Shown: positions 31,518-58,380 of the stretch, one piece after another
Layout: each line of letters begins with the position of its first letter
How positions within the stretch are numbered: position 1 is the stretch's first letter
Translations under genes and position numbers: made by a program
Assembly: GCF_018143015.1 (NCBI RefSeq)
Contig: NC_054751.1
Span: 28,449,438 to 28,513,437, forward strand
DNA: 64,000 nucleotides
DNA from: Lytechinus variegatus
Lineage: Eukaryota
Direction of reading: 5' to 3'
The notes under the pieces: generated by a model
Database searches by the model: none
Told to the model about the DNA's origin: nothing
Seen by the model: the letters and a program-made list of their open reading frames with translations, nothing else

Positions 31518-31518
31518 G

Positions 31519-32337
<819 letters not shown>

Positions 32338-32338
<1 letters not shown>

Positions 32339-32460
32339 ATGATGGTGATGATGATGACGATGATGTTGATGATGACGATGATGATGTTGATGATGATGAT
32401 GGTGATGATGATGTTCATGATGTTGATGGTGATGATGATGACGATAATGTTGATGATGAC
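32338..32460. repeat. (GATGAT/GATGAC)n microsatellite adjoining the AGT tract
   Basis: GATGGTGATGATGATGACGATGATGTTGATGATGAC... continues to 32460. Confidence 0.9.
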
Positions 32461-32515
32461 GATGACGGCAACAAAAAAAAACATTATGGTGATCGTACGT
32501 CTTAATAATTTCTAG

Positions 32516-32948: not shown

Positions 32949-33068
32949 GTGTGTAGATTTCAGTGGTGGTATATTAAACTTACCTGTTTGAAGTCATGTG
33001 AATAAAGCATCATCAATAGTTCACACTGTAGCATGCAATCATGGTAGGCAAACAATCGTTATTTTTAA

Positions 33069-33380
33069 CCCTGAATGGACTGGGCTATTTTGACGCCCAA
33101 GGAGACTCGGGGGAGCTGATTCAGCCCCCCCCCCCTTTATTATTTCGGCCGTCGATCGTGATGAAAATTGACACACACATTGCCCATGGCATAATCTACA
33201 AATTGTATGGTCAAATCTCATTTCTAATTTATGCATAAAATCAAAAGTTTGTTCTAATTAACTGAATAAGGCCCCTGAAATGCTAATTTTTGTTTCACAG
33301 TCTTTATCCGATTCTGATCAAATGTACTTAAAAAAATTTCAATATCACAACTATTTTCTAAAGATTGTTTGCTATTCTTT
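33069..33380. mobile_element. piggyBac-like MITE, 5' portion of the same family, ending at the MVP exon 13 acceptor
   Basis: TTAA at 33065-33068, then CCCTGAATGGACTGGGCTATTTTGACGCCCAAGGAGACTCGGGGGAGCTGATTCAGCCCCCCCCCC. The body is collinear with the 57040 copy up to about 33380. Confidence 0.65.
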
Positions 33381-33386
33381 AAACAG

Positions 33387-33481
33387 GTGAAAGTCATCAT
33401 GGGTCCAAAGTCATATCTCCTCAACGAACATGAGAAGCTATGGGAGAAGGAGTTAGACCCTCTGGTAGTGTCCATCCTCAA
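33387..33481 (+). CDS. MVP: MVP exon 13
   Basis: Acceptor ctttaaacAG, donor GTAAGT at 33482. VKVIMGPKSYLLNEHEKLWEKELDPLVVSIL matches [29 protein letters not shown]. Confidence 0.9.
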
Positions 33482-34461: not shown

Positions 34462-34546
34462 GAAAGGAGGAGGATTTGGTGAAGGAGACATCAGGAAGTT
34501 GGCTTATTTTGAACAATCCATTGACTCTGAGTATACTGGAAATAAG
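34462..34546 (+). CDS. MVP: MVP exon 14
   Basis: Acceptor tctgtttgtAG, donor GTAAGG at 34547. KKGGGFGEGDIRKLAYFEQSIDSEYTGNK. Phase is consistent. Confidence 0.8.
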
Positions 34547-35569
34547 GTAAGGCAAAGAGGCTCAGTGGTTGACGCAGTGGTGCAAGAATAGGCAGGTTGT
34601 CGGTTCACAAATGAGCCACTGAAAAATGGCTTTCAATAATTCAATCATAATTTTCATACTTGGGAAATGATGCATACTTTTCAGCTATGTCAATATGTCA
34701 ATTGTTTTCTACGAGAATAGCTTTTAAAAATAGTCATTATGAAAAGGGGGATTGGCAGGTTCGATGTTCAAACAATCACCACCGACAAATGGGTCAAATA
34801 ATTGTAAAAAAAAAAATTTCATGAAACAGTGTTGAAAGCTACTGAAATCCTTACATCTGATTGGCTGAAAGCAGATTAGTTATTGAAAATGGCTCACAAA
34901 ACTCTACATGAAATGCTCCCCTGATTGTACTTTGAGAGACATTACCCTTGAATACATGGTTAAGACAGAAAGTTCAAACAGTGACAATATGAAATATGCC
35001 TTAATTGAAATACAATTCTGAATTATGACAGTGGGTTAATTTCTGAATGTGGAGCTTTGCGGCACGGTAGATTAGTCTCTGGAGTTTGAAACAGGGGGTC
35101 GTGGGTTTGAATCCAAGCCATGGCAGCAGGAAGTTAATTCCTCAAAAAGCTGTGAGCAATGCGAGACTGTGTGTGTGTGTGTGTATTTGAGTTTTGTCAG
35201 AGGTGTAACAATCAGGTATGATTATTTACGTCTAGGACTGACCTTTAACGTCACCATCCGAAAGACGTTATCAGGGCTCGAACCTCTGCACCAATTTGTA
35301 ACTTCCCCACAGCTTGGATTACAGGCGCACGCCACAACGCCCAGCTAAGCTGGTAATAGGCTTACCTTCAGCCCCTACATGTAACAAGGTGGATATGTGT
35401 ATTATCCCAATACCCTATGTTATTATTATTATAATTATCATTAAATGTTTTGTATTAGATAACATGGATACTTTCATTCCAGGGGATGATTAAAAAAAAA
35501 ATCTGATGATTTTTAAAGTGGTTAAATGTTTTTGAAGATTCTTTTTTAACTCTCTCTCTCTTTAATTAT

Positions 35570-35626
35570 TATATTGCAGCCTAGAGATAAGACCAGAGCA
35601 GTGAGGTACAGATGCCCTCATAATAC
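35570..35626 (+). CDS. MVP: MVP exon 15
   Basis: Acceptor atattgcAG, donor GTGAGT at 35627. PRDKTRAVRYRCPHNTAVQ matches TRVVSYRVPHNAAVQ. Confidence 0.9.
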
Positions 35627-35823
35627 AGCAGTACAGGTGAGTGTAGTGGCAGCACCATGAGGAGGGGGTGGTGTGGTTTCACAAACAAAAACGTTCTATA
35701 AATAATTTTGCCCTTTTTGCCTGATTTCTTACAGATCTAAATCAACATCAAAATCAAGTGTTAAACTTAAACCTTGTAGGTTAACTTTCTTTAGGCATAC
35801 ATTATATCCATTTTGCATGACAG

Positions 35824-35920
35824 GTATATGAGTACCAGAAGAAGACGGCACGTGTTGTGTTTGGACCAGACATGGCTATTCTAGGACCTCATGAAGACTT
35901 CAATGTTCTTAGTCTCAGTG
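35824..35920 (+). CDS. MVP: MVP exon 16
   Basis: Acceptor gcatgacAG, donor GTATGT at 35921. [32 protein letters not shown] matches [32 protein letters not shown]. Confidence 0.92.
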
Positions 35921-36765
35921 GTATGTTAATACTTCATTACCCCTTTGACTCCCCAAATTAGTCTCTGTAATAGGCTTTGTACAGTGGCCATCTGGTTCCA
36001 GTAAGATACCGGTTAACTTTGAGTAGTTCATCACATTAAAGACAAAGAATTTATTGTAAAAAGCACAAAAAAATAATTTAAAAATATAGCTCAAGGTTTT
36101 GGAAAATCCTTTAAAGATTTAAAAAGTCGTTTGAATTTTAATTATATGATTTGTGACGTCATATGCGAGCAGCTTTCTTAAATATTGTAGGGTGAAAAAT
36201 CAGTGATATGTAATTTTTTCAGAAAATTGGTTTTACTGAAGCTTAAGTATATCAGTAGACAAATCATTTGACACCCGTTCCTAAATCGAAAACAAAAATA
36301 TGTCATCATTGACCATTGAAAAATTGAAATTTATGCATTTTATATTACATAACATATGGGGTAGCTGCTCGTTTGTGACATCACAAATCCAAAACTTTAA
36401 ACTCTAATAACTTAATCTTTATTGGATTTTCCTTAAACCTTTATCAATATTTGTTTATCATTTTTCCTGCTATTTTTACAACAAACTTTTCATCAGGGTG
36501 AACTTTTCTTTAACATTATTCTATTCGACCCAATTGAATCTGAACACACCCATTGTTGAAGAATGCAGTGATCTCGGCATTAAATAGGAAATATTTAGCA
36601 GGAAGATTTGAAGTCATTTGAATCATCAAAAGTGCCAAAAACTTACTGGGTTTTTCATGAAACATCCACCAATATCATGTTCTTATTGAAGCTGCTTTCA
36701 TTCAAATTGATTTATCACCAGGATGAACTTCTTCTTTAATTATTCATGCATTTACCTTTTTATAG

Positions 36766-36845
36766 CTGGTAAGCCAAAAGTGGAGAATGCTCTCAAAACT
36801 ATATGCCTCATGCTGGGACCAGATTACATCACAGATATTTTAGAG
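36766..36845 (+). CDS. MVP: MVP exon 17
   Basis: Acceptor ttttatAG, donor GTAAGC at 36846. AGKPKVENALKTICLMLGPDYITDILE matches RALCLLLGPDFFTDVITIE. Confidence 0.9.
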
Positions 36846-37019
36846 GTAAGCATTAAATGATAATATTTTCCTTCCCATCATTTCATGACTATCATAGTGT
36901 TAGAGAAAAAACAAATCCTTAACAAGAGGAGCATACATTTTAGATAAATCAGAGCAACGATATGAATAAAGTTGTTTCATAGCAGGCTAAAATTTTCATC
37001 TATGAAATAATAATAATAT

Positions 37020-37778
37020 TAGGGACAGTGATTTTCCGTTTCAGAAAATCTCAAATTCCGTTTCAGCATGTCTGAAAACGGAAATTCCGTTTCCCCATAG
37101 ACTTTGTGTACAAGAGAAATTGACAATTCCGTTTATATAGAAAACCAATACGCAACGAGTAGCTTTGTCAAAATGCTAGCGCTGCTCAAAATTTGCATCT
37201 ACCAATGTACTAACATCGCTTTAAAATCCATATTAATCGAAGAGATTCGAGCTCATGAAATATTTAGGGAAACATAATCAACATGAATATATTCTCACCT
37301 TTTATATTATTAGCATTATTTAATTGTTAAATGGGATTTTATCGCTGATTTGGGGACTTTTCGGACATCGTTTTGAACAGTCGATGACTTCCGAATATCC
37401 GCCATTTTGGATTTGATGAATCACCGTGATCATTATATTATGACCGAACGTAGAGGGCAGCAACACACGGCCGGATTCTGCCTTCTATGCGGACGTAAGT
37501 GAAAACTAATTTGGATATATACGATCGAGTGATGGAGAGGCTCGAGTGTAGTTACGATGTGTTGATTGTCATGATTGTTGTTGCAAAGTGAGATCGTGTT
37601 TTTTCAGTTGATATTCGTATTTTGTTGAGGATTTGGGATTAATTTCTGTTGCTTTTTTGTGCATTTTGAGAAAAACATGTTTTCCGTGATTTTCCGTTTG
37701 AAAAGCCACTTTCCGTTTCAAACAGCCGATTCCGTGAATTCCGTCCGTTTCCGCGATTGCGGAAAATCACTGTCCCTA
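37020..37778. mobile_element. TIR element with subterminal TTCCGTTTC repeats (hAT/MULE-like MITE), MVP intron 17
   Basis: TAGGGACAGTGATTTTCCG at 37020 pairs with CGGAAAATCACTGTCCCTA at 37760-37778. There are many subterminal TCCGTTTC motifs and a possible TAATAT flanking duplication. A fragment of the same family is at 58644-58730 in MAK16 intron 1. Confidence 0.7.
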
Positions 37779-38228
37779 TAATATGTGCAATTTGTAAGGC
37801 GCCATATCCATGTCATAAGAGATGCTCAAGGCGCACAAGTGAAGGGGGTAAAAAAATCACAAGCATCAGGAAATCATTGATAAAATGAGTTAAAGAGGTA
37901 CATTTTAAGCTTAATCTTAAATGTTTTGACACTCTTGCTATCCCGGATCTCTCGTGGGAGGGAATTCCATAGTGAGGGCCCCTCATGGATGAATGAAATG
38001 ATTAGCTTGACGTGATTTTCTTTCCAAAGTTGATCTGCATTGAGATTGTTTTTAATAGAACTCGTAAAAAGAATAAGTGTGGAAGCTTTATATCTTAAAA
38101 TGCAACATATTTTGCTCAAATTATAAAAAAAAATTGCAAAGTGCTTCAGTGTTATTTTAAATCAAGCATTTTACATTAATAAACATTAATATTTTTGTGA
38201 CTTATTTATTTTTACATTGTTTTCTTAG

Positions 38229-38288
38229 GTGGAGACGGCTGACCATGCAAGGCTAAAGATCAAGATCGCTTTCAACAACCATTTTGAG
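38229..38288 (+). CDS. MVP: MVP exon 18
   Basis: Acceptor tttcttAG, donor GTAGAT at 38289. VETADHARLKIKIAFNNHFE matches ETADHARLQLQLAYNWHFE. Confidence 0.92.
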
Positions 38289-39158
38289 GTAGATTTGTTT
38301 TTACTCTTTCAGTATCCATCAAGACCCCATGGTTGAATTTTAGCCATTTGTTATTTGCGGAATGTGTTATTTTCTCATTCTTGCAAATATGATTGTTGGT
38401 ATTTTCATAGGAGTGGTTTAGTTTGAACCAAGGTTCACTAAGACTATGCTTTTATGGTAAGCTGGAGTACCGACAAAATCTCAGAGAGACCCATACACAG
38501 TTGTACACTACACCTAAGCTGTTGAACCTGTTCATCCTGCATGCAAATCAATTCTTTTTTAGAACGAAAAGTATCACATATCACATGAAACTCGAGGGCT
38601 GAGGAAACCTCGGCGATGAAGCATGCATGGATGGTTGGTTAATTTCACCGTCATAGCATTATGTCGTCCAAATCAAAAGCTCCCAAAATTGAGGATTAGG
38701 ATTAAGGTTGGGGTAGGGTTGAGGTTAAGTTTCTATATTTGGCATTTGGTGCAGAATTAGCTTTGGTGCTATGGTCACTGAAAAAATGTTGTGGAACCAA
38801 TTACCCAAGGTCAGACCTGATATTTGAGGGAAAAAACAGAGTCAATTCCATCCATAATGAAATATATCACTAGTTTTGTAATCATCTTTCTCAGTCATGA
38901 TGTTCATAATTTTGCAATTATTTGACGTTCAGTCAGTATATCTTTTAGAGTTGACTTGTCCATGTATGTAAAGTATTCATGGTACGTAAGGTGGAATGCC
39001 AGCAATAGATTTGAGGTTTCAGATATTTTGCATCCACATTAATCCATTGTCAACTGTCTATACCCAAACACATTGCTGTGGATTTTGAAGGTATTATAAA
39101 AGCGGAATATCATTATTATATTGTGATATCATGTTTATGGTTCTGTTTTTGTTTGTAG

Positions 39159-39237
39159 TTTGAGCGAGGAAACTTGAAGGAAGAGAGTTCCATCTTCTCG
39201 GTGCCAGACTTCATTGGATTTGCCTGTAGAGAAGTTG
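39159..39237 (+). CDS. MVP: MVP exon 19 (tandem in-frame acceptors at 39158 and 39164)
   Basis: Acceptor tttgtttgtAG (an alternative TTTGAG lies 6 nt downstream); donor GTAAGC at 39238. FERGNLKEESSIFSVPDFIGFACREV matches KLFSVPDFVGDACKAIAS. Confidence 0.8.
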
Positions 39238-39727
39238 GTAAGCTACATGTATGATAATAGTTATTCTTATGCCTAGGAATAGATCATATCTAGATAATAA
39301 CAATATGCAACATCTATATAATACTTAATTCAATGTTTCTGAGCGCTGCATACTATTACCTTGGCTTTGGCAAGGCTACCCTGATGGAGTGTTCAAGTAT
39401 TCAAGGAATTTCTTCCTATTGGGTACCCATTTACTACACCTGGGTGGAGATTGACAAATATAGATAAATGCCTTGCCAAAAGAGACGAGTGCTGCGATGG
39501 GATTTGAATCCCGAACCTTATGGTTCAAAGGTTGATGGAGATATGGAGATATGTAATTGCTTATTATTTTTATTATTATTGCTCAAATAGTAATTATTAC
39601 ACATGTAACTAAATTGTGAATCTTGAAGGTGTTCTAATATATTGAGGGTTTTATAAAAAGCAAACCTATGGTCTTACAGGTTCCTTAACCCTTCATATAA
39701 TTATGGTATTTGATGTATATACTCTAT

Positions 39728-40027
39728 GGCCCGTATTCTGAAGTCAGGTTTAACTTAAACTCAGGTTTAAAGTTATGGAAAGCCAATAGTATCAAAGTTT
39801 TTATTAAGTTCTATGTTTCTTATGTTTACTGTGCTCTTTCCTGATTCATCGATGGTGAAGACAATAATTTATTTATACTTCCTACACAATTATAAATGAT
39901 TTGAGAGCCGAATGAGCTGGAGTATGATGTCTCTACTGTTAGTGATTATGTGACAATTGGCTGTCCATACTTAAACCACAACTTTAAACCTGAGTTTAAG
40001 ATAAACCCGACTTCAGAATATGGGCCC
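39728..40027. mobile_element. MITE (TIR GGCCCGTATTCTGAAGTC), MVP intron 19
   Basis: Inverted termini are at 39728 and 40010-40027. Subterminal ACTTAAAC/TTTAAACCTGAG repeats are present. The related family at 11215-11590 has TIR GGCCTGTATTCTGAGC. Confidence 0.65.
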
Positions 40028-40255
40028 ATGTATTTGCCCTATTGATGAATAAACCACAATACTTGGAATTGTGTTTCCTTACTGCTATATCAGATTAGCC
40101 TTGGGCAATCTTGTAGTTTGTCAGGAAGACTTTTTATAGAAAGTGTATCAAACATTTACACGAGACTGGAAATATTACATTTGTGTATATCATCACTTAA
40201 CTTTTTGGAGTCTGCTTCACTTGGTGTCTTGGTATTTCAATTTCTGTCCTAACAG

Positions 40256-40398
40256 GAAGTCGCATCCGTGGTGCCGTGTCAAGGGTCAAATTTGACGAGT
40301 TTCACCGTCACTCTATGGAGCTGTTGAAGACTGGCGTGTTCGGTTTGAATCCCGATAAGACTCCCAAAGATAGACTAGTCTTTAAAGCCAACAAACTG
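40256..40398 (+). CDS. MVP: MVP exon 20
   Basis: Acceptor tcctaacAG, donor GTAAGT at 40399. GSRIRGAVSRVKFDEFHRHSMELLKTGVFGLNPDKTPKDRLVFKANKL matches [30 protein letters not shown]. Confidence 0.92.
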
Positions 40399-41540
40399 GT
40401 AAGTTGTCATTGGGGGCATGTTGCGGGGTGGGGAGACGGGGTCAATTTTGGACTTGATTTGAAAAAAGGTCCGCTCTTGTATTGTGATTGATCATTGACA
40501 TATTGAAAATTGGTGCCGTTCATGTAGTCTATAACTTTCAACTTATTGAATAATAATTATGATGATTTGATTTATAGTTTGATTTTTATCCAAGAACAAA
40601 GGATACCAGTGTTTTATATATAAAATTTGTAGATCAGGGGAGGATTTCACAAAGAGTAAAGTGTGATGAAAAGTCTCTGCCGGAACGTGAGTCACATAAT
40701 CTGCCACAACTCAGTAGGTGTGGTTACTTCACATCATCTTCATTTTTTATGTTGTTTTTATCTGTTACTTCTTAGCAACACACTATGAGATATTCAATAA
40801 TCTATTGATGGCTTGAGGAATTCATTACACAACCAATCAAACACAACTCTCGAAACTTTATACTCAACTTGTTTTTCAAGAAATAAAAAACGTGTACTCA
40901 GAAATTGCACTTGATTTTTTCAGTTGCATTTATAAAGACAAGTCTTTCTGCAACGGCCCCCAGATTTGAAAATCAAGTTGCTGATAATTTCTAGAGTTCC
41001 ATCAGGGACTCAGTTTTAGCGAAAGCGATTGCTCGCTACCGCTCTCCTTAATCAATTTAAGTTAGAGCAATTTATCGCTCGCCTCAGCGAATTCAATGTT
41101 TTGTATTAAAACATAAAATGATTAATGCAGAGATGCACAAAAAAAGAAAGAAATCAAGCAGCATTATACACATTTGTATTATTTGTACATTCCATGTATA
41201 ATCTCTATTCTGGTATGACTTAAAGAGTGTCGGTTAATGATCAAACTGTTAGATCCAAACCTTGTAAAAACCTCATTCTAGGTCAAGGTTTTATAAACAA
41301 CACACAATTACACAATTAGCTATAAGCAGTAACATACATTACAACAGCGCCTGCATTACAAGAATGACAATAAAAAGTTCATTGAGATATATATTGCATA
41401 TTGACCCTTTATTTGATTAATTGTCTCCTTTGGTTATGGGTTGTATGATGATGCATAGAAAATGTGAAATGAACATATGAATAAAATCTTCACCCCTTGA
41501 ACCAGACATTCACCACTGCTCTCTGTATCCCTGTCCCTAG

Positions 41541-41641
41541 GTGATTACCAATGTTGACATCCAAGCCATAGAACCGGTGGATTCTACGATGAGAAACAGT
41601 CTTCTGAAATCAGTTCAGATGGCCATTGAAATCGCAACTCA
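41541..41641 (+). CDS. MVP: MVP exon 21
   Basis: Acceptor ctgtccctAG, donor GTGAGT at 41642. [33 protein letters not shown] matches [33 protein letters not shown]. Confidence 0.92.
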
Positions 41642-41649
41642 GTGAGTGA

Positions 41650-42256
41650 ACACAGTTTGCATACACGATCCAGGACCATGTTTCATGAAGACTTAGACCT
41701 TAATACATGTAAATTTCGCTGCTTTGCCGCCTTGCAAATTTTTTTTACCGCGCCACTTGCGCATCTTTTGAGACCAAATTTGCGTTGTTGTTTTAGATGG
41801 ATTTATTTTCTGTTATGTATGATGGAAAAGGGTCCCCGTCAAGGTTTATCCAAAAAACAAAAAACAGTTATGAAAAAACAAAGAAATACATAAGAATTAA
41901 AAAACAATAAAATACATAGGAAATTAATCATTTTGGGGGCAATTCTGTGTAGAGTTTTGTTAGAAATTAAAAAAAATTCATATGTTTACCAAAACTTAGC
42001 TTTCTCCTAATTATGTAAAGTAAGTTAAAGGCAAAAACATACAAAAAAAATAATTCAAGGCAAATTTCATATGCTTATTTGCATAATTAAATAATAAAAA
42101 AATATAAGTGATCAATTTTTTGAAAATTTAACTTTAGTCTTAGAGTTTACATCCGGCTATACGTGCATGCAAATTTTCGCGGCGATCTTGGCCGAGATCT
42201 GAGGGGGGTCAAACTGACCCCCCCCCCATAGGATATGTTGGTCCAAAATAGCCCAG
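41650..42256. mobile_element. Related MITE (3' terminus ...GGGGGGTCAAACTGACCCCCCCCCC...GGTCCAAAATAGCCCAG|TTAA) ending 31 bp before MVP exon 22
   Basis: The reverse complement of 42236-42256 is CTGGGCTATTTTGGAC, matching the family TIR core, followed by TTAA at 42257-42260. The subterminal region 42160-42230 resembles the 57700-57775 end. The 5' boundary is uncertain. Confidence 0.5.
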
Positions 42257-42287
42257 TTAAATATTCAATCACTTTTATCACCCATAG

Positions 42288-42468
42288 ATCTATTCAGAGA
42301 ACTGCCGGTCAAGATGCGGCCTGCAAAGAGCAGGAGGCTCAGGGACAGCTGGAGAGACAGAAGCTTACTAATGAACAGGAGAATGAAAAGGCTCGTACCT
42401 TGCTGCATGAGTTGAGAGCTAGCGCCAGCGCCGTGGAGTCGTGTGGACAGGCCAAAGCTGAGGCACAG
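42288..42468 (+). CDS. MVP: MVP exon 22 (start of coiled-coil cap helix)
   Basis: Acceptor cacccatAG, donor GTATGG at 42469. ...QLERQKLTNEQENEKARTLLHELRASASAVESCGQAKAEAQ matches [41 protein letters not shown]. Confidence 0.92.
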
Positions 42469-42628
42469 GTATGGCCAAGATTTACAATCAAATTATTCTT
42501 GAGATTCTTTCATTTCATTCAACTCTCCAATTAAATATATTCTTGAAGGACAGAAATTAACATTATGAAAGCAGGGGCAGAAGTCAGGCCATTTCTTTTT
42601 CGTTTCATTAAGGATTTTTTTAAAGTGC

Positions 42629-42850: not shown

Positions 42851-44502
42851 TTTCATTGTTACCAGACTTCATTCACTGCTCAAGCGATGATAATATGAAA
42901 ATATTTTAGATCATTGAGAACTTTTCATGTGAACTAAAAAAAATAGACAGATTCTTTCAATAAGGTATGGGGAGTTGGACATACTTATTTTATGGAATCA
43001 CCCTATTGTTTAATAAGGCAGTCAAAGTATAGGAACATTGTTACATTTTCTGTGCAAAAAATAATAACATTGATGGGTTTTTGTAGTTAAAGATAAATTC
43101 CAGTGTTGGTAACGATCTCAAAATTACTTTTTACAGAATCTAATATAATGACCACCCAAGTGTCTGTTTGTATGAATAAAAAATATGTGCCAAAGGATTC
43201 TTGAAGAAATTGTGTAATTGCTGAGAAATAAGCAAAATAAGCGCGGATTCGGTCACTTCCGTCGGGTCTTTATTCCAGCAATAATAATACACTGTCCCAA
43301 GTGTTCCTATCTGTGTTGGTGATTTTCAGTGTGAACATTTTTCAGCGTAGATTTCACGATTCCACAAAGTTCAGTTTATGTAACTGTACCAGATCTAGAT
43401 CCTCGATGATATACTGACAATTAAGCCTGGATTTACAGACTTTCTCATGAAATCAGTGTTTACTGCAACTACTGGCATTTCTCTTTAAGATTAATAATAA
43501 TAATAATAATAATATTCCGCATTTATATAGCGCTTAATACATAGGAACGATGTCTCTAAGCGCTTTACAAACATATTATTACCCCGGTCATCGGATCCTT
43601 GCATGCCCGCATACAATGTATGCACCTTCTCCACTCCCTTTGGAGCATTCCAACAAGAGTTCCAAGACTCAATTGCTAGGCATACTACATATAGGCTTTC
43701 ACATCCTACCGGGTACCCATTTAACACCTGGGTGGAGAGTGGCAAAGTGTGGATTAACGCCTTGCCAAAGGACGCTAGGCCATGGTGGGATTCGAACACA
43801 CGACCCTCTGATTACAAGGCGAGAGTCAGAACCGCTACACCATGACGCTTCCACACAATTGATCAGATCAATTTCAACTCTTTATAAGATGGGCCTTAAA
43901 AAGAAGAATAAGAAGACATGTTATATAGTGGTGGTGCTAATTTCAGGGTTCCCGGCCCATCAGGGAAATCGGAAAGTTATTCTACTTTTTTTCCAGTCAG
44001 GGAAAAGTTGGGGACTTTGGTAAAAAAAATACCTCAAATCAGGGAAAAATGCCTCACATGAGGGAAAAATTAGGGAATTTTGTTCGGCTCAAAAGTCAAA
44101 AGCATGGTAATCAGTCAGACTCTGTTATATTTTGTTGCATATCAAAACAACCATTGAATGACTGTTATGGTGGTACTAATTAGTTTTACATTATTGCTTT
44201 TATACTGAAAATACATGTAATGCAATGCAGCAACTTAGAAAACGTGCAAAACTGGGAATAGGTGTAGATATCAGGGAATTTTGAAAATTCATCAGGGAAA
44301 AATCAGGGAATTTGGAAACTTCATCAGAAAAGCTTGGAACCTTGGATTTTGTTACCTGTTGCTGCCCGAAAGAAAGCATTCAGAGCTCTGAAGGCTTAAA
44401 GGCCTCTCAGAGGGACCTACATGTAGTAAGAAGATAAATGCCTTACCAAAGAGCACCAGCTCTAACAATAGTAACACAATATCAATGTAATCTTGTTTCC
44501 AG

Positions 44503-44694
44503 GCTCAAGCTGAGAGACTTCTGATTGAGGGTCACAGTGCCATCGAGTCAGCCAGACTCAAGGCAGAGGCCGAGGACATCTTATGCAACTCCGAGCTGGA
44601 CAACACCCAGATGGCTCGCCTGTCGGAACTGAACTTTCTAAAGGAGCAGAATGAACTGGAGATAGGCAAAACAAAGCAATTGGCAGATATTGAG
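44503..44694 (+). CDS. MVP: MVP exon 23 (coiled coil)
   Basis: Acceptor tcttgtttccAG, donor GTTAGG at 44695. AQAERLLIEGHSAIESARLKAEAEDIL...QLADIE. The heptad-rich sequence is consistent with the MVP cap helix. Confidence 0.85.
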
Positions 44695-45040
44695 GTTAGG
44701 ATGTACTCTATGAGGTCAGAGGTCAAGATATGTCAGTGATTTTCACTGGCTGTTTTGTTCTCGACCAATCAGATATAAGCCCTCACAGTAGTGTATTAGA
44801 TTACCCAGCATGCAATTTTTTCCAGGTGCTACCATGAGGCCAAGTTAAAGTGAATAAAGGGAACTTAAGCAAAACAGTACATGATGAAGCAGAAGCAGCA
44901 GAAGAAGAAGAAGGAGGAGGAGGAAGAAGGAGAAGAAGAGGAGGAGGAAGAAATAGAGAGAAGGAATGAGTGATGCTACTCAGTTTGTTTATCTAATAAT
45001 TTTAATGTTTTCTTATCAACCCCTCTACATTTTCATTAAG

Positions 45041-45121
45041 GTCGGAAAGTTTGCTGAAATGGTGAAAGCCCTTGGAGCAGAAACCATCATGGAGATGGCC
45101 AATGCTGGACCCAAATTTCAG
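45041..45121 (+). CDS. MVP: MVP exon 24
   Basis: Acceptor tttcattaAG, donor GTAAAG at 45122. VGKFAEMVKALGAETIMEMANAGPKFQ matches [26 protein letters not shown]. Confidence 0.9.
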
Positions 45122-46485
45122 GTAAAGACAATTGGTGACACTACCATAAATACCAGCAAAATTAATACAATGAGAGTGAGGAACAGAAATGGCCTTCTTT
45201 TTTATCCGGACAATGCATTTTTCCACAATTATGAGTAGTTGAAAGTGAACAAAATTATAAGACCAGTTTGTAGTTACCTCATGGACAATTTTGGTCAAAT
45301 GACCTTTCTTTTATTTCATTATGATAGGCAGATTTCAAAGCAAGATATTATTACGTAAGCTTGCCTAACATAGCATGATGAAGAAATTGAATAGACCAGC
45401 TAGGGCCCATAACACAAAACTTAGCAATGATCGTAGAACATTTTTCTATGATTGATCCCATAGACTACAATGTACAATCAATCGTAAAGATCAAGTGTAC
45501 GATCAATCTCTAACCTTTGTGTTACGGACCCTGGTGTCTAGAATAGCACATCAGTGAACACTCTATGAAGGTATTTGTTGTATTTCTACTTTGAATGCAT
45601 ATTTAGAGGATGTTGTACAATGTACATGGCAAACTGTGAAATATACCAGTCATTCGTGGACACATTTTTCTGTGTGGATGTATTTGAAAAACACAATTCA
45701 AAAGAATACATGAATAATCAAGACATCAAAGTTGGTGCTTATCTCATTGAATTTTAAACCACCACGTCACTTTAGTACAAATGACCTTCCTGTGAACATG
45801 CGCAGAATCTTCTGATCATGTGCAGAGTGGAACTATGAACTGTCTTATTGCATCAACTCCCCTCAGTCATCTCCACATTGCCCACTTGACTTTGGGAAAA
45901 AAAAATAGTTGCGTAAACCTTTGCAATCATTTTGATTTTGGCGATCCACTATATAATGATTAATATTATTGCCAAATTATTGCCAAATTTTAAACTTTTC
46001 AACTTTAATTACAAACGACACTTACTTTACACTGAGCAACCCCTTTCTCTTGACTTATAATTATAGCCTCTCCCTCTCTTTCCTCCTTCTTTCCTGTCCT
46101 GTCTTATGGTATATGGATGTATTTTTATGATTATGTATGTATTATGTTTTATGTCTTATGTATTACGTACTATGTGTACTTATGAATGTTATATTGGGCC
46201 ATCCAAACAAGCCTGTTGAGCTTTCATTTGGTCCACCACTATTTTAAAATGTATTTGTATATTGCTTTGTACATATTTTAATTTTGTGGAAATAAATGAA
46301 ATGAAATGAAATGAAACACGTCAAATAAACCCTGAACACATCATTTCATATTCACAAGCTGTTTGCAAGTGCATCAGGCTATGTGTATAATGTAGCCTTG
46401 TTGAAATTTATCCATATTGTGATGCAGTCATTATTATCATTATTATTACTCTCTTTAATTTTGCTATTGATTTTCTTGAACACAG

Positions 46486-46608
46486 GTTGAACTGCTGAGC
46501 AGCCTTGGGCTTGAGATGACGGTGTTCACCGATGGAAATAGCCCCATCAATCTCTTCAACGTTGCACAGGGTCTCATAGCTCAGCCCACACAAAGCGAAA
46601 GTGCTTAG
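46486..46608 (+). CDS. MVP: MVP exon 25 (terminal; stop TAG 46606-46608)
   Basis: Acceptor gaacac[42 protein letters not shown] matches [32 protein letters not shown]. The total CDS is 2586 nt and in frame across all 25 exons. Confidence 0.9.
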
Positions 46609-48668
46609 TAAGTCACCGTGGATTATGCTTGAGAGCAGCTACACCATGTGTTGGGGGTAATACAATGTAGAAATATCATGCAAACGATGTTCCGGAAATG
46701 TTATTCGAGTGCATCACCAAAGTTTTCTTTGATCAGTTTACTTACCTGTAACAAGCTTGTGCAAATTTTCTCTAAGATTTACATTACATGTCTAGTGTCT
46801 TGAGTGAAACAATGAATCGAGAAACATCCTTGAAATGTGAGAATTACTTCCTTTGGCAGTATTCTGAAAATTATTTATCTTTCATTGTATCTTCATCGTC
46901 AGGATTGCCATAACTACTTTTGAAGTTGTAACTTTGATTTGTTGAGGTGTGCAACTTTGCACCCTAGGACCAGAAAGTGTGTGGTTTTGAACCAAAGACA
47001 TGCCTAATTTCAGGAGAGCATTTCAGATTTGTCCATGATTTTTTACCGACAATTGATATAAGCTACTGAAAATCATTAAACCGGATTGGATTGGCGAGGA
47101 GATAATTGGTGAGTTGAAATCACTGATAAAACTTAGATGACAAAGAAAAGGTAAACATGATTTTAGAATTTTCTTCCCTCTGCCTCATAGTGTTAAGGTC
47201 ACAATCAATTGTAATTATCAAACATATTATATCTTTGTTTTACCCCTTGAATTACAAATTGTGTTGACCATTACTTTCACTTGTACATACATCTATATGC
47301 AAATGTGACTATTGTGTACTTAATTCAACCCATTCCTTTTCAATTGAACTCTAAATGAATGCACAAAAAGAGATACTTTGAGTACAATACTTAGCTTAGT
47401 TCTGCTTTAAACATATACCAAGTAAATTTTTTTTTCATGATAGTGAGTTTGTATACATTATCTTTATTATCCATGTAGAAATTTGTTTAATATTTGGCTA
47501 ATAATGATAGTTTATCTGTCATATTGAATGACACTAAAGCTTTTTGTACATTAAGGAATATGCAATATTAAAAGATATATATTAACATGTAAATTATCTA
47601 TGGTAATGTAAAAAAAGATATTATAGTAGTGACAAAGCATCACATTTCCAACATCAGCACCTAAAGTTGTTGACTATTTTCCAAGAATGATGAAGTATTT
47701 CACTCCTTACATTGTATTTTTTATGCATTAATATAAGAGTAGAGAGGCCACTTTAACATGTCTTTCATGCCTTCTATTGCTTAATATATATATGATACTG
47801 TAAAATTAATGCCATGAAGGCAATATACAATGTTAGCTTTTATGTGTTGAGTCAAGTATTGCAGGTAATGTATTACTTTATAATGTTATATCGAGGGATG
47901 GTTAAGGGTACCCTTATGTATATTTTTTATGACTAAAAAAATTATCAAACCAATATTGGGAAAATCTTATTAGTGGGCAGTAAGCTTAGTGATTCAGCAA
48001 CACAGATTTGGTTTCTTGACTTACACAGTTACATACACTGGTAAACATGTTGATCGGAAAATTTGCTGCAAAATTGCAGTTTGTTCACTTTGATTCTGCA
48101 TGCGCTGCATGCAAAGAACATTCAAGCCATAAGATGCTGGGACCAACAGAGAATATGTGACTTTTTTTTAGAATAATGTCAAGATTAGCAATGAAATGAG
48201 TGCCCAAACAGAACAAATAATAGAGAGCTGTTTGAGATTTATATCAATTTATAATATATTATATTATTTATATATTTGATTATGTAAAACTAGAAAACAG
48301 AATTGTCAAATCATATATGTGACTAAAATTTTGAATTTGCTTATTTGGAATTTGAGATTCCTTAATATGGAATATATATAGTTATATAGTTATAGAAAAA
48401 ATAGATTTTAAATGAATTATAGATTCTAAAAGATTCTGATTTGTGTAATTTTCATACTTAAATTTAAAGTTTGAATTAAGTCCTATGCATCCAGTTATCT
48501 TCAAAGTTCTAGTTGTATACCAGCAAATTATTGTAGAAGAATTATACTTTAAGAATGAAATGCAGGGAGTTGTTTGAACTATTATTAATGCTTTATCAAT
48601 GATCCTGCATTATACATATTCTTTATTACCAATTTACCGTTTATTAGGTGCAATAGTCTATACTAGAA

Positions 48669-49015
48669 GCGTTGTGGTGTAGTGGTTCTGACTCTCGCCT
48701 TGTAATCAGAGGGTCGTGTGTTCGATTCCCACCATGGCCTAGCATCCTTTGGCAAGGTGTCAATCCACAATTTGCCACTCTCCACCCAGGTGTTAAATGG
48801 GTACCCGGTAGGATGTGAAAGCCTATGTAGAATGCCTAGCAAGTGAGTCTCTGAATTCTTGTTGGAATGCTCCCCAGGGAGTGGAGAAGGTACATACATT
48901 GTATGTGTGCATGCCAGTATCCCATGACCGGGGTAATAATATATCTGTTACGCTCTTAGAGACGTCGTTCCGATGTATTAAGCGCTATATAAGTGCGGAA
49001 TATTATATTATTATA
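48669..49015 (+). mobile_element. tRNA-derived SINE, family B
   Basis: Head GCGTTGTGGTGTAGTGGTTCTGACTCTCGCCTTGTAATCAGAGGGTCGTGTGTTCGATTCCCACCATGGCC is tRNA-like. An inverted copy lies at 43491-43853 (the ORF tracks there read through it). A tail fragment is at 15440-15590. Confidence 0.8.
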
Positions 49016-50879
49016 CGTGTAGTTATGATGAATATTATTTGTATGGTCAACAGTTGAATATTATTGGAAACATAATTATATTTGATATATAAATGAAATA
49101 AACATCTCTCAAAGAAGACAAATCCTTATTATTGTCCAGTGCTAAATTATATTTGCCATGAGATAGATTAAACTAAAGGGGTCATTTCTTGTGATTATAA
49201 AAACTGAAAGTGGTTGAATTTACACTGCCATTTTTCAACAAGGCAGTCCTACCATCAGCTGTTCCTAACTTTATTTTGTTTTTGTTCTTGCAAAATTACA
49301 AATAACCAATGGGTCGAGTCTATGAGAGGTGGTCCCCTCCAGCGGCCTAGTAACTCGGATGTACCGGCCTCAACTACATCCCTGGGAATAATCTGGATTT
49401 TCCAGGTCAGAACTTTGATTAAACAGTTCAAAACTTCCAAGGATTGCTTGCTTATGTATCGAGGTATTAATAACATTATTCTGTGCCTTCAATCTCTTGT
49501 TTCTATTTTTTCTTGTTTTTTTATTTTGCATATTCCTACCTCTGAATATAGAAATATAGTATAAATATTCTATCAAATACAAGAGTGGAATGTTAAATAA
49601 AATGGTTCAGTTTAATAGCACAAAGAGAGATCTAATAGACTATTTGATTGTCATTTTTTCATTTACAATATTACTTGTTTACAATATTATTTTTCTAATT
49701 TTTATCAGTGATGAATCGTTAATGATATTTTGATGTTATCAGACTCATTACTACTTATAAAATTTGAGAAATGTAATTTGTGTTATGTGTTGGAATCATG
49801 TATTTTCCATTCAAATTTGCCTTTGGCAAAAATATATATATTTAGAGTGCCAGTATATAGTTTTGATTATGAATACATTTCAAGTTTACTATATTGGTTT
49901 TTTTTTTCTTTGTCAGTGAAATTATACTAACATTTATACTAACATTTGAGTGACTTGTAAGAGGAATTATAAGTGGAAAATAGAAAAGTGGAAAAATGCC
50001 AACTTACAACCAATGGACTCTGGGAATTTGGAGGTGTTTAATGTAATATATCCAAGGCCTCCAAGAAGTTGTTTGTACCCCCCCCCTCCCCCTCTCTGAA
50101 TGTTGAAGTCTTAATACATTATACAAACATGAATTATACATACACCTGATATACAGTAAACTCAAATGACAAATTTTTCACAGAAATCATATTCTATAAG
50201 AAACATCTTTGTGTTTATTACAGTAAATGCCAGGAATCAATAAATAGCATCTACGATTGTGGAGGTCGAGTACAAGGGCAAAATTTGGGCAGAGAAATTG
50301 CCTGTAAAACCCACCGCACACTACATGATCCAACTACGATGCATTTTCTTTTAAACAATCACATTCTGTATCAAAAACAATACAATGATATTTTAGTTCT
50401 AAGAAAACCTAAAATAATATATGACATTCAAAATAATGCTAGGAATACTACTAACAGAATTCTCCTATGCTGCTAGCACTGAGGTCGGAGTAAAGTCCCA
50501 AATCTGGTTTCTAGCTGCATGCAGTCGATGACTTCATTACGATTTGGAATTGAATTTGCTTTTATTCGTACAGGGGGGCTCTAAATAGACTGTAATTTTC
50601 ATGTCTTGTGGGTGTTTCATAAAGCTGTTCGTAAGTCAAGAGCGACTATAAGAACGACTGGTGATCCTTTCTTGTGGCGAATGGTATATTCATTAGCGAT
50701 GCTTCTGCGCGTAAGAAAGGATCCCCAGTCGTTCTTAAAGTCTCTCTTGACTTACAAACAGCTTTATGAAACGGCCTCCAGTATTCTTACCACATTCCAA
50801 AATTTCATTCCCATCCTAAGAAACCAAGATTTTATAGGTGGGAATGGAATGTTCAAATTAAATGTTATTTAGAGAACCG

Positions 50880-56210: not shown

Positions 56211-57039
56211 GATGACTTGCCTCAGTCAAATCTCTTTGAGATCGCAGAAATCTGTTCGACCTAGGAGAAGTTTGACTCAAAAGATGTGAATAAGACATGT
56301 TTTACAAATCTATAATGCTTCAAGGTTTAACATAACTGAAGTCTTCTATTTATCCATCTCTGCCTCCTCTTCTTTCTGACATTCCAACTTCTTCTGTGTA
56401 CTATTCTATCTCTGTATCCCCTCTCTCTGTATGTTATAATGTAGAATATTTTGCTGTAACTTGAATATGTATTGAGATGTTTATTATCTGTACAAATACA
56501 TGTAATTCAGCCTTTGGCTATTAATTGGATTTTCTTACAAGAAATAGCATTTGAACCAAATTAATCAGAATCTGCATCTTGAAAGTATTTTTTAATGCTG
56601 TTTCGTACAGAAGAAATCTCTACTGTCAATAAAAAAATACTTTTTTAAAAGTAAGAATTTCAGGTTGTTGAAGTGGCCATTGTCTATAATTTCATTCATT
56701 TTTATAATGTTTAATAATTGATTACGATCTTTTACTTCTTTGTATTGTGATTTGTAATATTTGTACAATGTTGAAATTCAAATTTACAAACTTATATATT
56801 ATAGACTCTAACTCTGTAACAAAAAAATAACACTATTCAGTAATTTAAAAATAAAGGTGCAAGTATTAATTAAAAAGGACAAGAATTTGCCAGTTAACCT
56901 AGAGGTCAGAGTTAACCTCATTTTTTCTTTAATGAATAACGAGCAATATCATATGATGCAGACCTCCTTCTTTATAATCGTTAGCACCGCTCTTGGATGC
57001 ATATTTATTCTTGTTCGTTGATTTAATTTAGGGAATTAA

Positions 57040-57784
57040 CCCTAAATAGACTGGGCTATTTCAACGCCTAAGAAGACTGGGGGGGCTGATTCAGCCCCCC
57101 CTTATGATCTCGGCCGTCGCTCGCGCGATCGCAACGAAAATTGGCACACGCGTTACCCATGGCATTATCTACAAAACTGTAACATCAAATTCTGCAAAAA
57201 ATCTCATGTTTCATTAATTATGCTAATTTATGCGTAAAATCATAAGTTTGCTCTAATTAATAAAATAATGCCCCTGAAATGCTAATTTTTGTTTCACATA
57301 CTCTAGATAGGCATCTGATCAAATTTATTTTAAAAAAATTCAACATCACATTTATTTTCTTATGTATTCTATTGTTTTCTAAATTTCTTATGTATTTCTT
57401 TGTTTTTCGACTTTTTGTTTTTTATTGTTTTTCAATGGAAATTGTCGGGGACTTTATTTTGACCACAAAAAAGAGAAAATCAATTGATTTTAAGCAGTAA
57501 AAGGAAAAATAATGATACATTTATGAATTTTTGCTAAAAACACTATTTGCATTGGATTTGTACACAAATTCACGTTTTTGAGTAATTTTGGGTCTGCATG
57601 CACTTACGAAATGTTGCGTAATTTCTGAACCACGTACCCGGGGGTCACAATTTTGGTCTCAAAAGTTGCACGAGACTTGAAAGTAAAAAGTCAGCGAGCG
57701 ACGCGGTCAAAAAATTTTGCGCGGCGGATTTATCGTGAAAAATGTTGAGGGGGGGGCTGAATCAGCCCCCCAGTCTTTTTAGGG
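57040..57784. mobile_element. piggyBac-like MITE (TTAA target-site duplication) in MAK16 intron 2
   Basis: Termini CCCTAAATAGACTGGG...CCCAGTCTTTTTAGGG are inverted repeats flanked by TTAA on both sides (57036-57039 and 57785-57788). Subterminal palindromes GGGGGGGCTGATTCAGCCCCCCC occur at both ends. Confidence 0.75.
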
Positions 57785-58380
57785 TTAAAGGTCAAGTCCA
57801 CCCCAGGAAAATGCTGACTTGAATAAATAGAGAAAAATCAAACTAGCATATGCTGAAAATTTCATCAAAATCGAATGTAAAATAAGAAAGCTATGACATT
57901 TTAAAGTTTCGCTTATTTTTCACAAACAGTGATATGCACAACTAGGTGAGTCAGTTGATGTCCATCACTCACTAATTCTTGTTTTTTCTTGTTTGAATTA
58001 TACAATATTTAATTTTTATGGATTTTACAATAAGGACCAACTTGACTGAATCATATATGTTCAGGGAGGAATTAATCGTTATATCACTTGACAATGAGAA
58101 AATCAAAATATTTCATGTAATAGAATACAAAAGAAATGGTGAGTGGATGATGTCATAGTCTCATTTGCATACCAGCCAGGATGTGCATATAACCATTTGT
58201 GAAATTAAGCAAAACTTTTGAATGTCATAACTTTCTTATTTTACAATTACATCGGATTTTGACAAAATTTTCTGTGTTATGCTTGTTGGGTTTTTCTCTT
58301 TTTATTCAAATCAACTTTTTGTTGGAGTGGGCTTGTCCTTTAACCTGAACTGGATCAGGAAGCTCTTTAAGCTGACCTAC

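What the first reader, a model, noticed from the sequence alone, without database searches (positions are those of the whole stretch)
41650..42300. The terminus of a related MITE (CCCAG|TTAA) lies 31 bp upstream of MVP exon 22
42236-42256 (GGTCCAAAATAGCCCAG) is the reverse complement of the family TIR core CTGGGCTATTTTG. It is followed by TTAA at 42257-42260. The subterminal G10/C10 hairpin GAGGGGGGTCAAACTGACCCCCCCCCC sits at 42201-42228. The acceptor CACCCATAG|A of exon 22 is at 42286-42287. The polypyrimidine tract of this acceptor is immediately adjacent to the insertion, and the long G-run/C-run hairpin is within 90 nt of the 3' splice site.
Basis: partly seen in the sequence, partly recalled or inferred. 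Interest (0 to 1): 0.5.

Follow-up and report, generated by a model that had tools for sequence, protein, structure and literature searches.

The report
Decayed piggyBac-type MITE filling an MVP intron
An old, worn-down copy of a small non-coding "cut-and-paste" transposon (piggyBac type) makes up about four fifths of a short intron of the major vault protein gene and ends 20-31 bases before the next exon; this is an ordinary kind of genomic passenger and nothing shows that it alters splicing.

Summary
The sequence features are real, with small errors. The 17-mer is at 42240-42256, not 42236. The hairpin is G6/C10, not G10/C10. A profile built without this copy finds it at E=5.5e-28, so it is a true member of the family also present at 33065-33361 and 57036-57788.

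The family is a piggyBac-type MITE. The full 745-bp copy has TTAA duplications, CCCT...AGGG inverted ends and a G-run/C-run palindrome under each end. Relatives turn up in five eukaryote-like metagenome contigs.

"CCCAG|TTAA" is not the canonical terminus. All seven other ends read TTAA|CCCT+7 nt+CTGGGCTATTT. In this copy the TTAA aligns with the inner 7 nt, and the outer CCCT and its duplication are unrecognisable. The opposite end has lost its palindrome and tip. This is a decayed or truncated, immobile copy.

Firm homology covers 41727-42256, which is 530 of the 646 intron bases. The intron position and phase are ancestral: a distant species has a 192-nt intron there. The acceptor and its 27-nt pyrimidine-rich tract lie outside the firm homology.

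No effect on splicing can be shown or excluded with these tools. Two untested leads are a cryptic acceptor inside the hairpin and an inverted pairing with the 33-kb copy. Verdict: an ordinary intronic MITE of low interest.

The parts
41541..41641 (+). MVP coding exon upstream of the intron. It ends ...ACT CA|GTGAGT, in phase 2.
   Evidence: tblastn. Joined to the next exon it aligns end to end with rat MVP residues 634-727, E=1.6e-19.
41642..42287 (+). Intron, 646 nt, GT...AG.
   Evidence: The same intron position and phase occur in L003, where the intron is 192 nt. P0001/L001 has no intron here.
41727..42256 (-). Firmly homologous body of the MITE copy ('c42'). It lies in the opposite orientation to the copies at 33 kb and 57 kb.
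   Evidence: Leave-one-out nhmmer hit 42260-41799, E=5.5e-28. blastn 41789-41927 against 57352-57496: 74%, E=5e-20. Collinear HSPs 41756-41782 and 41727-41769 against 57674-57648 and 57727-57686.
41684..41726 (.). Ambiguous left margin of the copy. It includes TTAA at 41700-41703 and a possible remnant, AAGACT, of the tip CCCTAAAAAGACT. The palindrome and canonical tip are absent.
   Evidence: Alignments, read by eye. No statistically supported homology here.
42203..42227 (.). Subterminal palindrome GGGGGGTCA-AAC-TGACCCCCC(CCCC). It is a hairpin in the pre-mRNA.
   Evidence: -18.1 kcal/mol. An equivalent G-run/C-run palindrome sits at every family end.
42244..42256 (-). Conserved inner block of the terminal repeat, CTGGGCTATTTTG.
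   Evidence: Exact match to 33080-33092. CTGGGCTATTT is invariant in 8 of 8 ends, but the five metagenome ends were retrieved with this very motif, so only the three window ends are independent evidence.
42257..42260 (.). TTAA abutting the conserved block. It is either the present boundary with host sequence or the last 4 nt of the inner 7-mer of the terminal repeat.
   Evidence: The profile aligns it to repeat positions 12-15. L013 has CCCTTACTTAA|CTGGGC.
42261..42287 (+). Last 27 nt of the intron, ATATTCAATCACTTTTATCACCCATAG: pyrimidine-rich tract and acceptor. The first ~7-11 nt may be the decayed MITE tip.
   Evidence: 14 of the 20 nt before the AG are pyrimidines.
42214..42231 (+). Consensus-like cryptic 3' splice signal inside the MITE: CTGAC (branch-point-like), C10, ATAG|G. 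Half of it is sequestered in the hairpin stem.
   Evidence: Sequence. Use of it would add 56 nt, shift the frame and meet a stop codon. Its use is not tested.
42288..42470 (+).
33065..33361 (+). Family copy 'c33'. It has an intact TTAA|CCCTGAATGGACTGGGC... end, is truncated at about the middle of the element, and ends 5-25 nt before the acceptor of the exon starting at 33387.
   Evidence: Leave-one-out nhmmer E=5.6e-40, envelope to 33381.
57036..57788 (+). Full-length reference copy 'c57': TTAA + 745 bp + TTAA, with tips CCCTAAATAGACTGGG / CCCTAAAAAGACTGGG and a palindrome under each tip.

Best explanation
The region is an old, decayed copy of a non-autonomous piggyBac-superfamily element (a MITE of about 0.55-0.75 kb).

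**Origin (inferred).** The copy inserted, most likely at a TTAA, into an ancestrally short MVP intron of roughly 90 nt. It now forms at least 82% of that intron.

**Family architecture (shown).** TTAA duplication, CCCT...AGGG inverted tips, an extra inner block CTGGGCTATTT at one end, and a G-run/C-run palindrome 14-60 bp from each tip. [quoted passage not shown]

**State of this copy (shown).** It has lost both canonical tips. At the exon-proximal end the outer CCCT and the duplication are unrecognisable or deleted. One plausible route is slippage between the flanking TTAA and a TTAA inside the repeat (inferred). At the other end the palindrome and tip are gone. The copy can therefore no longer transpose.

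**Relation to splicing.** The intron is still removed at GT 41642 / AG 42287, because this gives an intact, conserved MVP reading frame (shown). The acceptor's pyrimidine-rich tract, and probably the branch point, lie in the last 20-31 nt next to the element. The element is most likely a neutral passenger for splicing (inferred).
For: **Homology**
- Leave-one-out profile E=5.5e-28.
- blastn E=5e-20.
- Collinear left-part HSPs.

**Family definition**
- The full copy has TTAA on both sides and tips identical at 15 of 16 positions.
- No ORF of 130 aa or more lies in any copy.
- There are three copies in the window.
- Five related ends in eukaryote-like metagenome contigs share the same architecture.

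**Palindrome**
- It is present at every end, with varying centres: CTGA-N-TCAG, TCA-NNN-TGA, CCTC-G-GAGG.
- The piggyBac palindromic internal repeat at bp 17-33 is bound by a CRD dimer (PMC7351741).

**Intron and reading frame**
- The intron is ancestral and short elsewhere: same position and phase in L003, 192 nt.
- 89 nt remain here if the two TTAA mark the boundaries.
- The reading frame is intact and aligns with rat MVP 634-727.

**Age and precedent**
- Divergence between copies of about 26-27% indicates an old insertion.
- Truncated piggyBac MITE copies are common elsewhere: most human MER85 copies are solo left or right ends (PMC2268245).
Against: - No empty orthologous site could be obtained, so the insertion boundaries and the ancestral intron are inferred, not seen.
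- Both present-day homology limits abut a TTAA (41700-41703 and 42257-42260). TTAA density is 0.75% per position. This hints at something more orderly than random decay.
- No autonomous partner was found.
- No expression data exist, so neutrality for splicing is an assumption.
- Both copies inside MVP end within 31 nt of an acceptor. My rough estimate is about 5% per copy if insertions were uniform over the present introns. I attribute this to insertion into once-short introns, but that is not shown.
Confidence: 0.82

Rival explanations
1. The copy belongs to a related subfamily whose true terminus is ...CCCAG, inserted at the TTAA at 42257-42260. It would then be a complete end with its target-site duplication 27 nt from the exon.
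For: - Strong homology stops exactly at CCCAG and a TTAA follows immediately.
- A TTAA also abuts the other homology limit at 41700-41703.
- TTAA density is only 0.75% per position.
Against: - All seven other ends carry CCCT + 7 nt outside CTGGGC.
- piggyBac-type ends start with CCC, and this one would start CTGGGC.
- The two putative ends, CTGGGCTATTTTGG and TACATGTAAATTTC, are not inverted repeats of each other (sequence).
- L013 shows a TTAA directly before CTGGGC inside a canonical repeat.
- The profile aligns the TTAA to repeat positions 12-15.
Confidence: 0.12
2. The element influences splicing of this intron. It may supply or mask the branch point. It may offer the cryptic acceptor CTGAC-C10-ATAG|G at 42231. 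Its G-run, C-run or hairpin may recruit or block splicing factors.
For: - A near-consensus branch-point, pyrimidine tract and AG lie 56 nt upstream of the real acceptor, partly inside a -18 kcal/mol hairpin.
- The real acceptor, CACTTTTATCACCCATAG|A, has a more interrupted pyrimidine tract than most acceptors of this gene.
- No clear yUnAy branch-point motif lies 18-35 nt upstream in the non-MITE flank (my reading).
Against: - Use of the cryptic site would shift the frame and hit a stop codon.
- The copy is old and the gene's frame is intact, so the insertion is tolerated.
- The branch-point A to AG distance of 13-14 nt at the cryptic site is short.
- There are no expression data.
Confidence: 0.1
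3. The 33-kb copy (sense) and this copy (antisense) act as an inverted-repeat pair in the pre-mRNA. They bracket the exons from 33387 to 41641 and would promote back-splicing (a circular RNA) or skipping of that block.
For: - The geometry fits. One copy ends just upstream of the acceptor at 33386, and the other starts about 60-85 nt downstream of the donor at 41642.
- The predicted inter-copy duplex is -148.5 kcal/mol against -95.3 +/- 6.2 for shuffles.
- There is a 14-bp perfect match, ACTGGGCTATTTTG.
Against: - The two copies are so diverged that blastn finds no HSP between them.
- The duplex is riddled with loops.
- Each copy has its own strong local hairpin competing with inter-copy pairing.
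- The shuffle control was mononucleotide only.
- There are no expression data.
Confidence: 0.05
4. The resemblance to a MITE is a chance match of a 13-mer plus a G/C-run hairpin in AT-rich intron sequence.
For: Short-motif matches with up to 2 mismatches are at chance level (3 found, 1.84 expected).
Against: - Leave-one-out profile E=5.5e-28 over about 460 nt.
- blastn E=5e-20.
- The G6...C6 pattern is never seen in shuffles.
Confidence: 0.01

Closest known systems
piggyBac-superfamily MITEs in general, for example human MER85/MER75 (PMC2268245)
   Same: - Non-coding and multi-copy.
- TTAA target duplication and CCC...GGG tips.
- Many copies survive only as partial ends. MER85 has 403 solo left ends, 119 solo right ends and 73 complete elements.
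- Frequently intronic.
   Different: - This family is larger: 745 bp against 140 bp.
- Its left end has an extra inner block, CTGGGCTATTT.
- It carries a G-run/C-run palindrome under each tip.
- No autonomous parent was identified here.
Coral CMITE families of Acropora (Wang et al. 2010, PMC2872659)
   Same: - piggyBac-like MITEs of a marine invertebrate with TTAA duplications and CCCT-type tips (CCCTTT...).
- Internal or subterminal sequence is conserved across families more than expected.
- One copy was found in an intron, of an LDH-like gene.
   Different: - CMITEs are about 100 bp with a 75-nt conserved core.
- The present family is 0.55-0.75 kb with a different architecture.
- No sequence comparison was possible because the CMITE sequences are not in the text.
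T. ni piggyBac terminal architecture (PMC7351741, PMC5861402)
   Same: A palindromic internal repeat close to the tip (bp 17-33 in piggyBac; bp 14-36 at the right end of the 57-kb copy). In piggyBac this repeat is the binding site of a dimer of the transposase's cysteine-rich domain.
   Different: - The palindrome here consists of G- and C-runs with a variable centre. It has no similarity to TGCGT/ACGCA.
- Binding by a transposase is inferred, not shown.
Inverted intronic repeats (such as Alu pairs) that promote exon circularisation. This comparison rests on my own knowledge, not on a tool result.
   Same: Two copies of one repeat family lie in opposite orientation in the introns flanking a block of exons.
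   Different: Complementarity here is patchy, at about 60-65% identity. No circular RNA evidence exists.

Membership tests
piggyBac-superfamily non-autonomous element (MITE) | TTAA target-site duplication flanking both tips | tested here: inconclusive
   Met for the family's full copy: TTAA at 57036-57039 and 57785-57788. For the copy in question, a TTAA abuts each homology limit (41700-41703 and 42257-42260), but neither is in the canonical register. The right one aligns inside the repeat.
piggyBac-superfamily non-autonomous element (MITE) | Terminal inverted repeats beginning 5'-CCC... and ending ...GGG-3' | tested here: not met
   Met by the 57-kb copy (CCCTAAATAGACTGGG / CCCTAAAAAGACTGGG, 15 of 16), by the left end of the 33-kb copy, and by all five metagenome ends. 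Not met by this copy. The positions expected to hold TTAA-CCCT read TGAT-TGAA, and the other tip is missing. This is a degenerate copy, not a mobilisable element.
piggyBac-superfamily non-autonomous element (MITE) | Short and without coding capacity | tested here: met
   The full copy is 745 bp and this copy is about 530-585 bp. No ORF of 130 aa or more overlaps any copy.
piggyBac-superfamily non-autonomous element (MITE) | Multiple dispersed copies | tested here: met
   Three copies in 64 kb. Related copies occur in metagenome contigs L009, L013, L021, L038 and L039.
piggyBac-superfamily non-autonomous element (MITE) | An autonomous partner encoding a piggyBac transposase with matching ends | not testable with these tools
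   None of the five ORFs of 130 aa or more was scanned against protein families, so a transposase gene in the window was not tested for. The host genome is not in the searchable collections.
The window's own MITE family (copies at 33 kb and 57 kb) | Statistically significant sequence homology along the element | tested here: met
   A leave-one-out nhmmer profile hits 42260-41799 at E=5.5e-28. There are collinear HSPs down to 41727.
The window's own MITE family (copies at 33 kb and 57 kb) | Ordered subterminal blocks: CTGGGCTATTT, G-run/C-run palindrome, ATCTCGGCC, GATCGC, GAAAATT | tested here: met
   All blocks are present in the same order in this copy (alignments).
Coral CMITE (PMC2872659) | About 100 bp in length with a 75-nt conserved internal region | tested here: not met
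   The size is 0.55-0.75 kb against 96-108 bp in the paper. No sequence comparison was possible.
Transposon-derived splicing element (exonised, or an alternative acceptor) | Transcript evidence that element sequence is used as, or changes the use of, a splice site | not testable with these tools
   No transcript data are available. There is only a sequence-level cryptic site at 42214-42231.

The most novel reading that the evidence does not exclude
The two MVP-intronic copies may not be neutral. The antisense copy (41727-42256) and the sense copy (33065-33361) sit directly against the splice sites that bound the exon block 33387-41641. They can pair in the pre-mRNA and so promote a circular MVP RNA or block skipping. 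In addition, the hairpin of the copy in question may hide a consensus-like cryptic acceptor (CTGAC-C10-ATAG) that would otherwise create a frame-shifted transcript.
Probability: 0.06. Interest if true: 0.4.

Novelty: new member of a known kind. Interest (0 to 1): 0.12.

Why it matters
It matters little by itself. The finding documents how a piggyBac-type MITE expanded a short, ancestrally conserved intron of a conserved gene about seven-fold, and then decayed in place close to an acceptor without disrupting the reading frame.

Two points have modest wider value:
- **The family's spread and architecture.** The family is widespread in eukaryote-like marine or environmental contigs. Every end keeps a G-run/C-run palindrome whose centre changes while remaining palindromic. 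This is a candidate transposase-binding or structure-dependent element for the piggyBac superfamily.
- **Position next to acceptors.** Both MVP copies abut acceptor sites. Many acceptors of this gene carry TTAA in their T/A-rich tracts. This would be worth a genome-wide test of target preference near 3' splice sites.

Tried and rejected
**Finding the same locus or a close relative, to look for an empty site**
- Exact look-ups of two window ORFs that span the element found nothing on record.
- A protein search with the two exons found only distant relatives, at 62% and 49% identity. These were useful only for conservation of the intron position.

**Pattern scans**
- The scan of prokaryotic genome contigs returned 21 hits. 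I did not read them. By their ~48-nt match spans they look like the bacterial coding-sequence hits seen in the metagenome scan, so I set them aside.
- The scan of viral contigs returned nothing.
- Most of the 36 metagenome hits were that same bacterial sequence. Only L009, L013, L021, L038 and L039 are relatives.

**RNA families.** Rfam and tRNA scans of the window found nothing.

**Extending the copy to a canonical tip**
- A TGAAT match 6 nt beyond CTGGGC, and an AAGACT match at 41690-41695, are each only about 1-2% coincidences. They give conflicting registers, so they are treated as ambiguous.
- A forced global alignment misplaces the left third of the copy because of internal deletions. 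Local alignment was used instead.

**Other checks**
- A further G/C-run hairpin at 22512-22545 shows no homology to the family.
- The species could not be identified with the available tools.
- I ran no further search on ORFs inside the MITE, because success was unlikely.

Full report
**Context.** The window is eukaryotic. A major vault protein (MVP) gene runs on the + strand from about 18.7 to 46.6 kb, with at least 22 detectable coding exons. This was mapped by tblastn with a human MVP sequence recalled from memory, used only as a probe. The two exons around the finding, 41541-41641 and 42288-42470, join to give a 94-residue peptide. That peptide aligns end to end with residues 634-727 of rat MVP structures at E=1.6e-19. 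The intron between them is 41642-42287: 646 nt, donor TCA|GTGAGT, acceptor CCCATAG|A, phase 2. The number "22" for the downstream exon is plausible but unverified.

**Check of the observation.**
- GGTCCAAAATAGCCCAG occupies 42240-42256, not 42236-42256.
- The hairpin is G6/C10, not G10/C10. It is a 9-bp stem GGGGGGTCA/TGACCCCCC with loop AAC at 42203-42223, plus four extra C.
- TTAA is at 42257-42260 and the acceptor AG at 42286-42287.
- The 13-mer CTGGGCTATTTTG occurs exactly twice, at 33080 on the + strand and 42244-42256 on the - strand.
- The pattern G6-N(3-20)-C6 occurs only at this site and at the two ends of the 57-kb copy. Zero are expected in shuffles.

**What the family is.**
- The reference copy at 57036-57788 is TTAA + 745 bp + TTAA. 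Its tips are CCCTAAATAGACTGGG and, in reverse complement, CCCTAAAAAGACTGGG. A G-run/C-run palindrome sits just inside each tip.
- The left end carries an extra inner block, CTGGGCTATTT...CCTAAGAAGACT, between the tip and the palindrome.
- A second copy at 33065-33361 has the same intact left end, TTAA|CCCTGAATGGACTGGGCTATTTTG, and is truncated in mid-element.
- No copy has an ORF of 130 aa or more.
- TTAA duplication, CCC/GGG tips, small size and multiple copies are the defining features of a non-autonomous piggyBac-superfamily element.
- A pattern scan of metagenome contigs retrieved five low-GC (33-43%) contigs that I take to be eukaryotic: L009, L013, L021, L038 and L039.
- All five show the same architecture at the retrieved end. 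L013 and L038 also share significant homology over more than 350 nt, about 63% identity to the 57-kb copy, at E=7e-24 and E=5e-23.
- The family, or a group of related families, is therefore widespread.

**Is the copy in question a member?** Yes.
- blastn links 41789-41927 to 57352-57496 at 74% identity, E=5e-20.
- A profile built from five other members, without this copy, hits 42260-41799 on the minus strand at E=5.5e-28.
- Two collinear HSPs extend the homology to 41727.
- The ordered subterminal blocks are all present: CTGGGCTATTT, palindrome, ATCTCGGCC, GATCGC, GAAAATT.
Firm homology covers 530 of the 646 intron nucleotides.

**Is CCCAG|TTAA the terminus?** Probably not in the sense intended.
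- In all seven other ends exactly 11 nt, CCCT plus seven variable bases, separate the TTAA duplication from CTGGGC.
- In this copy those positions read TGAT-TGAA-TATTTAA. The outer eight match TTAA-CCCT at only 2 of 8 positions.
- The inner seven, TATTTAA, match L013's TACTTAA at 6 of 7 positions. The profile places the TTAA at repeat positions 12-15.
- Two readings remain:
  - The tip decayed in place. The original end would then be near 42267, 20 nt from the exon.
- About 11 nt were deleted, for instance by slippage between the flanking TTAA and a TTAA inside the repeat.
- The other end has lost its palindrome and tip. Supported homology ends at 41727. A TTAA at 41700-41703 and an AAGACT remnant at 41690-41695 give conflicting hints.
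- Either way the copy lacks functional ends and is immobile.

**History of the intron.**
- The same intron position and phase exist in a distant MVP gene, L003, where the intron is 192 nt. Another relative, P0001/L001, lacks it.
- If the two TTAA mark the boundaries here, 89 nt of non-element sequence remain.
- The element therefore expanded a short ancestral intron about seven-fold.
- The copies differ from one another by about 26-27%, so the insertion is old. The MVP frame has remained intact.

**Mechanism and consequences.**
- The subterminal palindrome is kept at every end. Its centre differs between members, CTGA-N-TCAG, TCA-NNN-TGA or CCTC-G-GAGG, yet mostly stays self-complementary; the centres in L009 and L021 are not.
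- In T. ni piggyBac a palindromic 19-bp internal repeat at bp 17-33 is bound by a dimer of the transposase's cysteine-rich domain (PMC7351741). By analogy the palindrome is most likely the transposase-binding site. This is an inference.
- In the pre-mRNA the palindrome forms a -18 kcal/mol hairpin 60-85 nt upstream of the acceptor.
- The real acceptor has a moderately pyrimidine-rich tract: 14 of the last 20 nt, interrupted by A.
- The element contains a consensus-like signal, CTGAC-C10-ATAG|G, at 42214-42231. Half of it is buried in the hairpin stem. Using it would add 56 nt and lead to a premature stop.
- Nothing here can show whether that site is used. Given the age of the insertion and the intact gene, the neutral-passenger reading is the best supported.

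- The 33-kb copy also ends 5-25 nt from an acceptor.
- It lies in the opposite orientation to the copy studied, so the two bracket the exons from 33387 to 41641.
- A predicted inter-copy duplex is far more stable than shuffles, -148.5 against -95 +/- 6 kcal/mol. However, the copies are too diverged for blastn to align them.
- I record possible back-splicing as a low-probability reading.
- Several acceptors of this gene carry TTAA in their T/A-rich tracts. This could favour piggyBac-type insertion near 3' splice sites. Insertion into once-short introns explains the proximity equally well.

**Comparison with known systems and verdict.**
- The closest known things are piggyBac-derived MITEs. Human MER85/MER75 mostly survive as partial ends (PMC2268245). 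The coral CMITEs have TTAA duplications, CCCT-type tips, conserved interiors and an intronic copy (PMC2872659).
- The present family differs in size and in its G/C-run palindromes.
- This is a new member of a well-known kind, or possibly one already catalogued. The specific claim of a CCCAG|TTAA terminus is only partly right, and no functional effect is demonstrated. Interest is low.

Noticed in passing
window 33065-33386: The family copy at 33 kb keeps an intact TTAA|CCCT end but is truncated at about the middle of the element. Its homology runs to 33361 (envelope 33381), only 5-25 nt before the acceptor AG at 33385-33386 of the exon starting at 33387. A TTAA sits at 33379-33382. The pyrimidine tract of that acceptor may be partly element-derived.
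   Followed up: partly
window 33065-33361 (+) and 41727-42256 (-): The two MVP-intronic copies are in inverted orientation and bracket about eight exons (33387-41641). The predicted RNA duplex is -148.5 kcal/mol against -95 +/- 6 for shuffles, but there is no blastn-level similarity between them.
   Followed up: partly
window 57022-57050: Just outside the left tip of the full copy the sequence reads ATTTAGGGAATTAACCCTAAAT. An 8-nt inverted repeat of the tip (TTTAGGG...CCCTAAA) surrounds AATTAA. This may be a remnant of an adjacent or excised element.
   Followed up: no
L039 1890-1925; L038 800-880: In the metagenome contigs, related elements abut one another. In L039 one element ends ...TTTTTAGGG and the next starts CCCTTACTGTACTGGGC on the same single TTAA. 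In L038 a truncated 3' portion of one copy lies directly before a new copy. This recalls the tandem MITE arrays described for coral CMITEs.
   Followed up: no
window 31367-32500: A large minisatellite with a 9-nt period lies in an MVP intron. It has more than 78 offsets and continues as a GAT/GTA-rich array, with strong GC skew (0.28). It creates an artefactual 234-aa ORF at 31503-32207.
   Followed up: no
window 43509-43851 and 48666-49006: A 343-nt inverted repeat pair, 89-95% complementary, flanks the last three detectable MVP exons (44500-46578). The arms overlap a tRNA-like SINE motif (GGGTCGTGTGTTCGATTCCCACC at 48711). This is much better complementarity than the MITE pair.
   Followed up: no
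window 22500-22560: Another G-run/C-run hairpin, preceded by TTTAGGG: TTTAGGGGGTGTTCAACCCCTGTAACCCCCCCCCCCCC. It has no detectable homology to the family. It may be the end of a different piggyBac-like element.
   Followed up: partly
window 1137, 30694, 35096, 48711; 2756/50608; 8442-8919, 9908-10317, 14307-14560, 36045-36491: Several other interspersed repeat families are present, including tRNA-related SINE-like units and hairpin-forming MITE-like units such as 2744-2942 and 50605-50781. The locus is repeat-dense.
   Followed up: no
L003 8019-8210; L001 5699-6001: The phase-2 intron between the codons for T-(N/Q) and S of MVP (rat residues about 667/668) is present in one distant relative, at 192 nt. 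It is absent in another, whose ORF reads straight through.
   Followed up: yes
L005-L040 (most) and L041-L061: In the metagenome hits I read, the search pattern also matches a conserved ~48-nt stretch, CTGGGCTATTTCGTTTTCATGGTGGGGGAA...CCCCC, in many high-GC contigs that look bacterial. It is unrelated to the MITE and looks like a conserved coding sequence, though I did not check that. The genome-contig hits have similar ~48-nt spans but their sequences were not examined.
   Followed up: no
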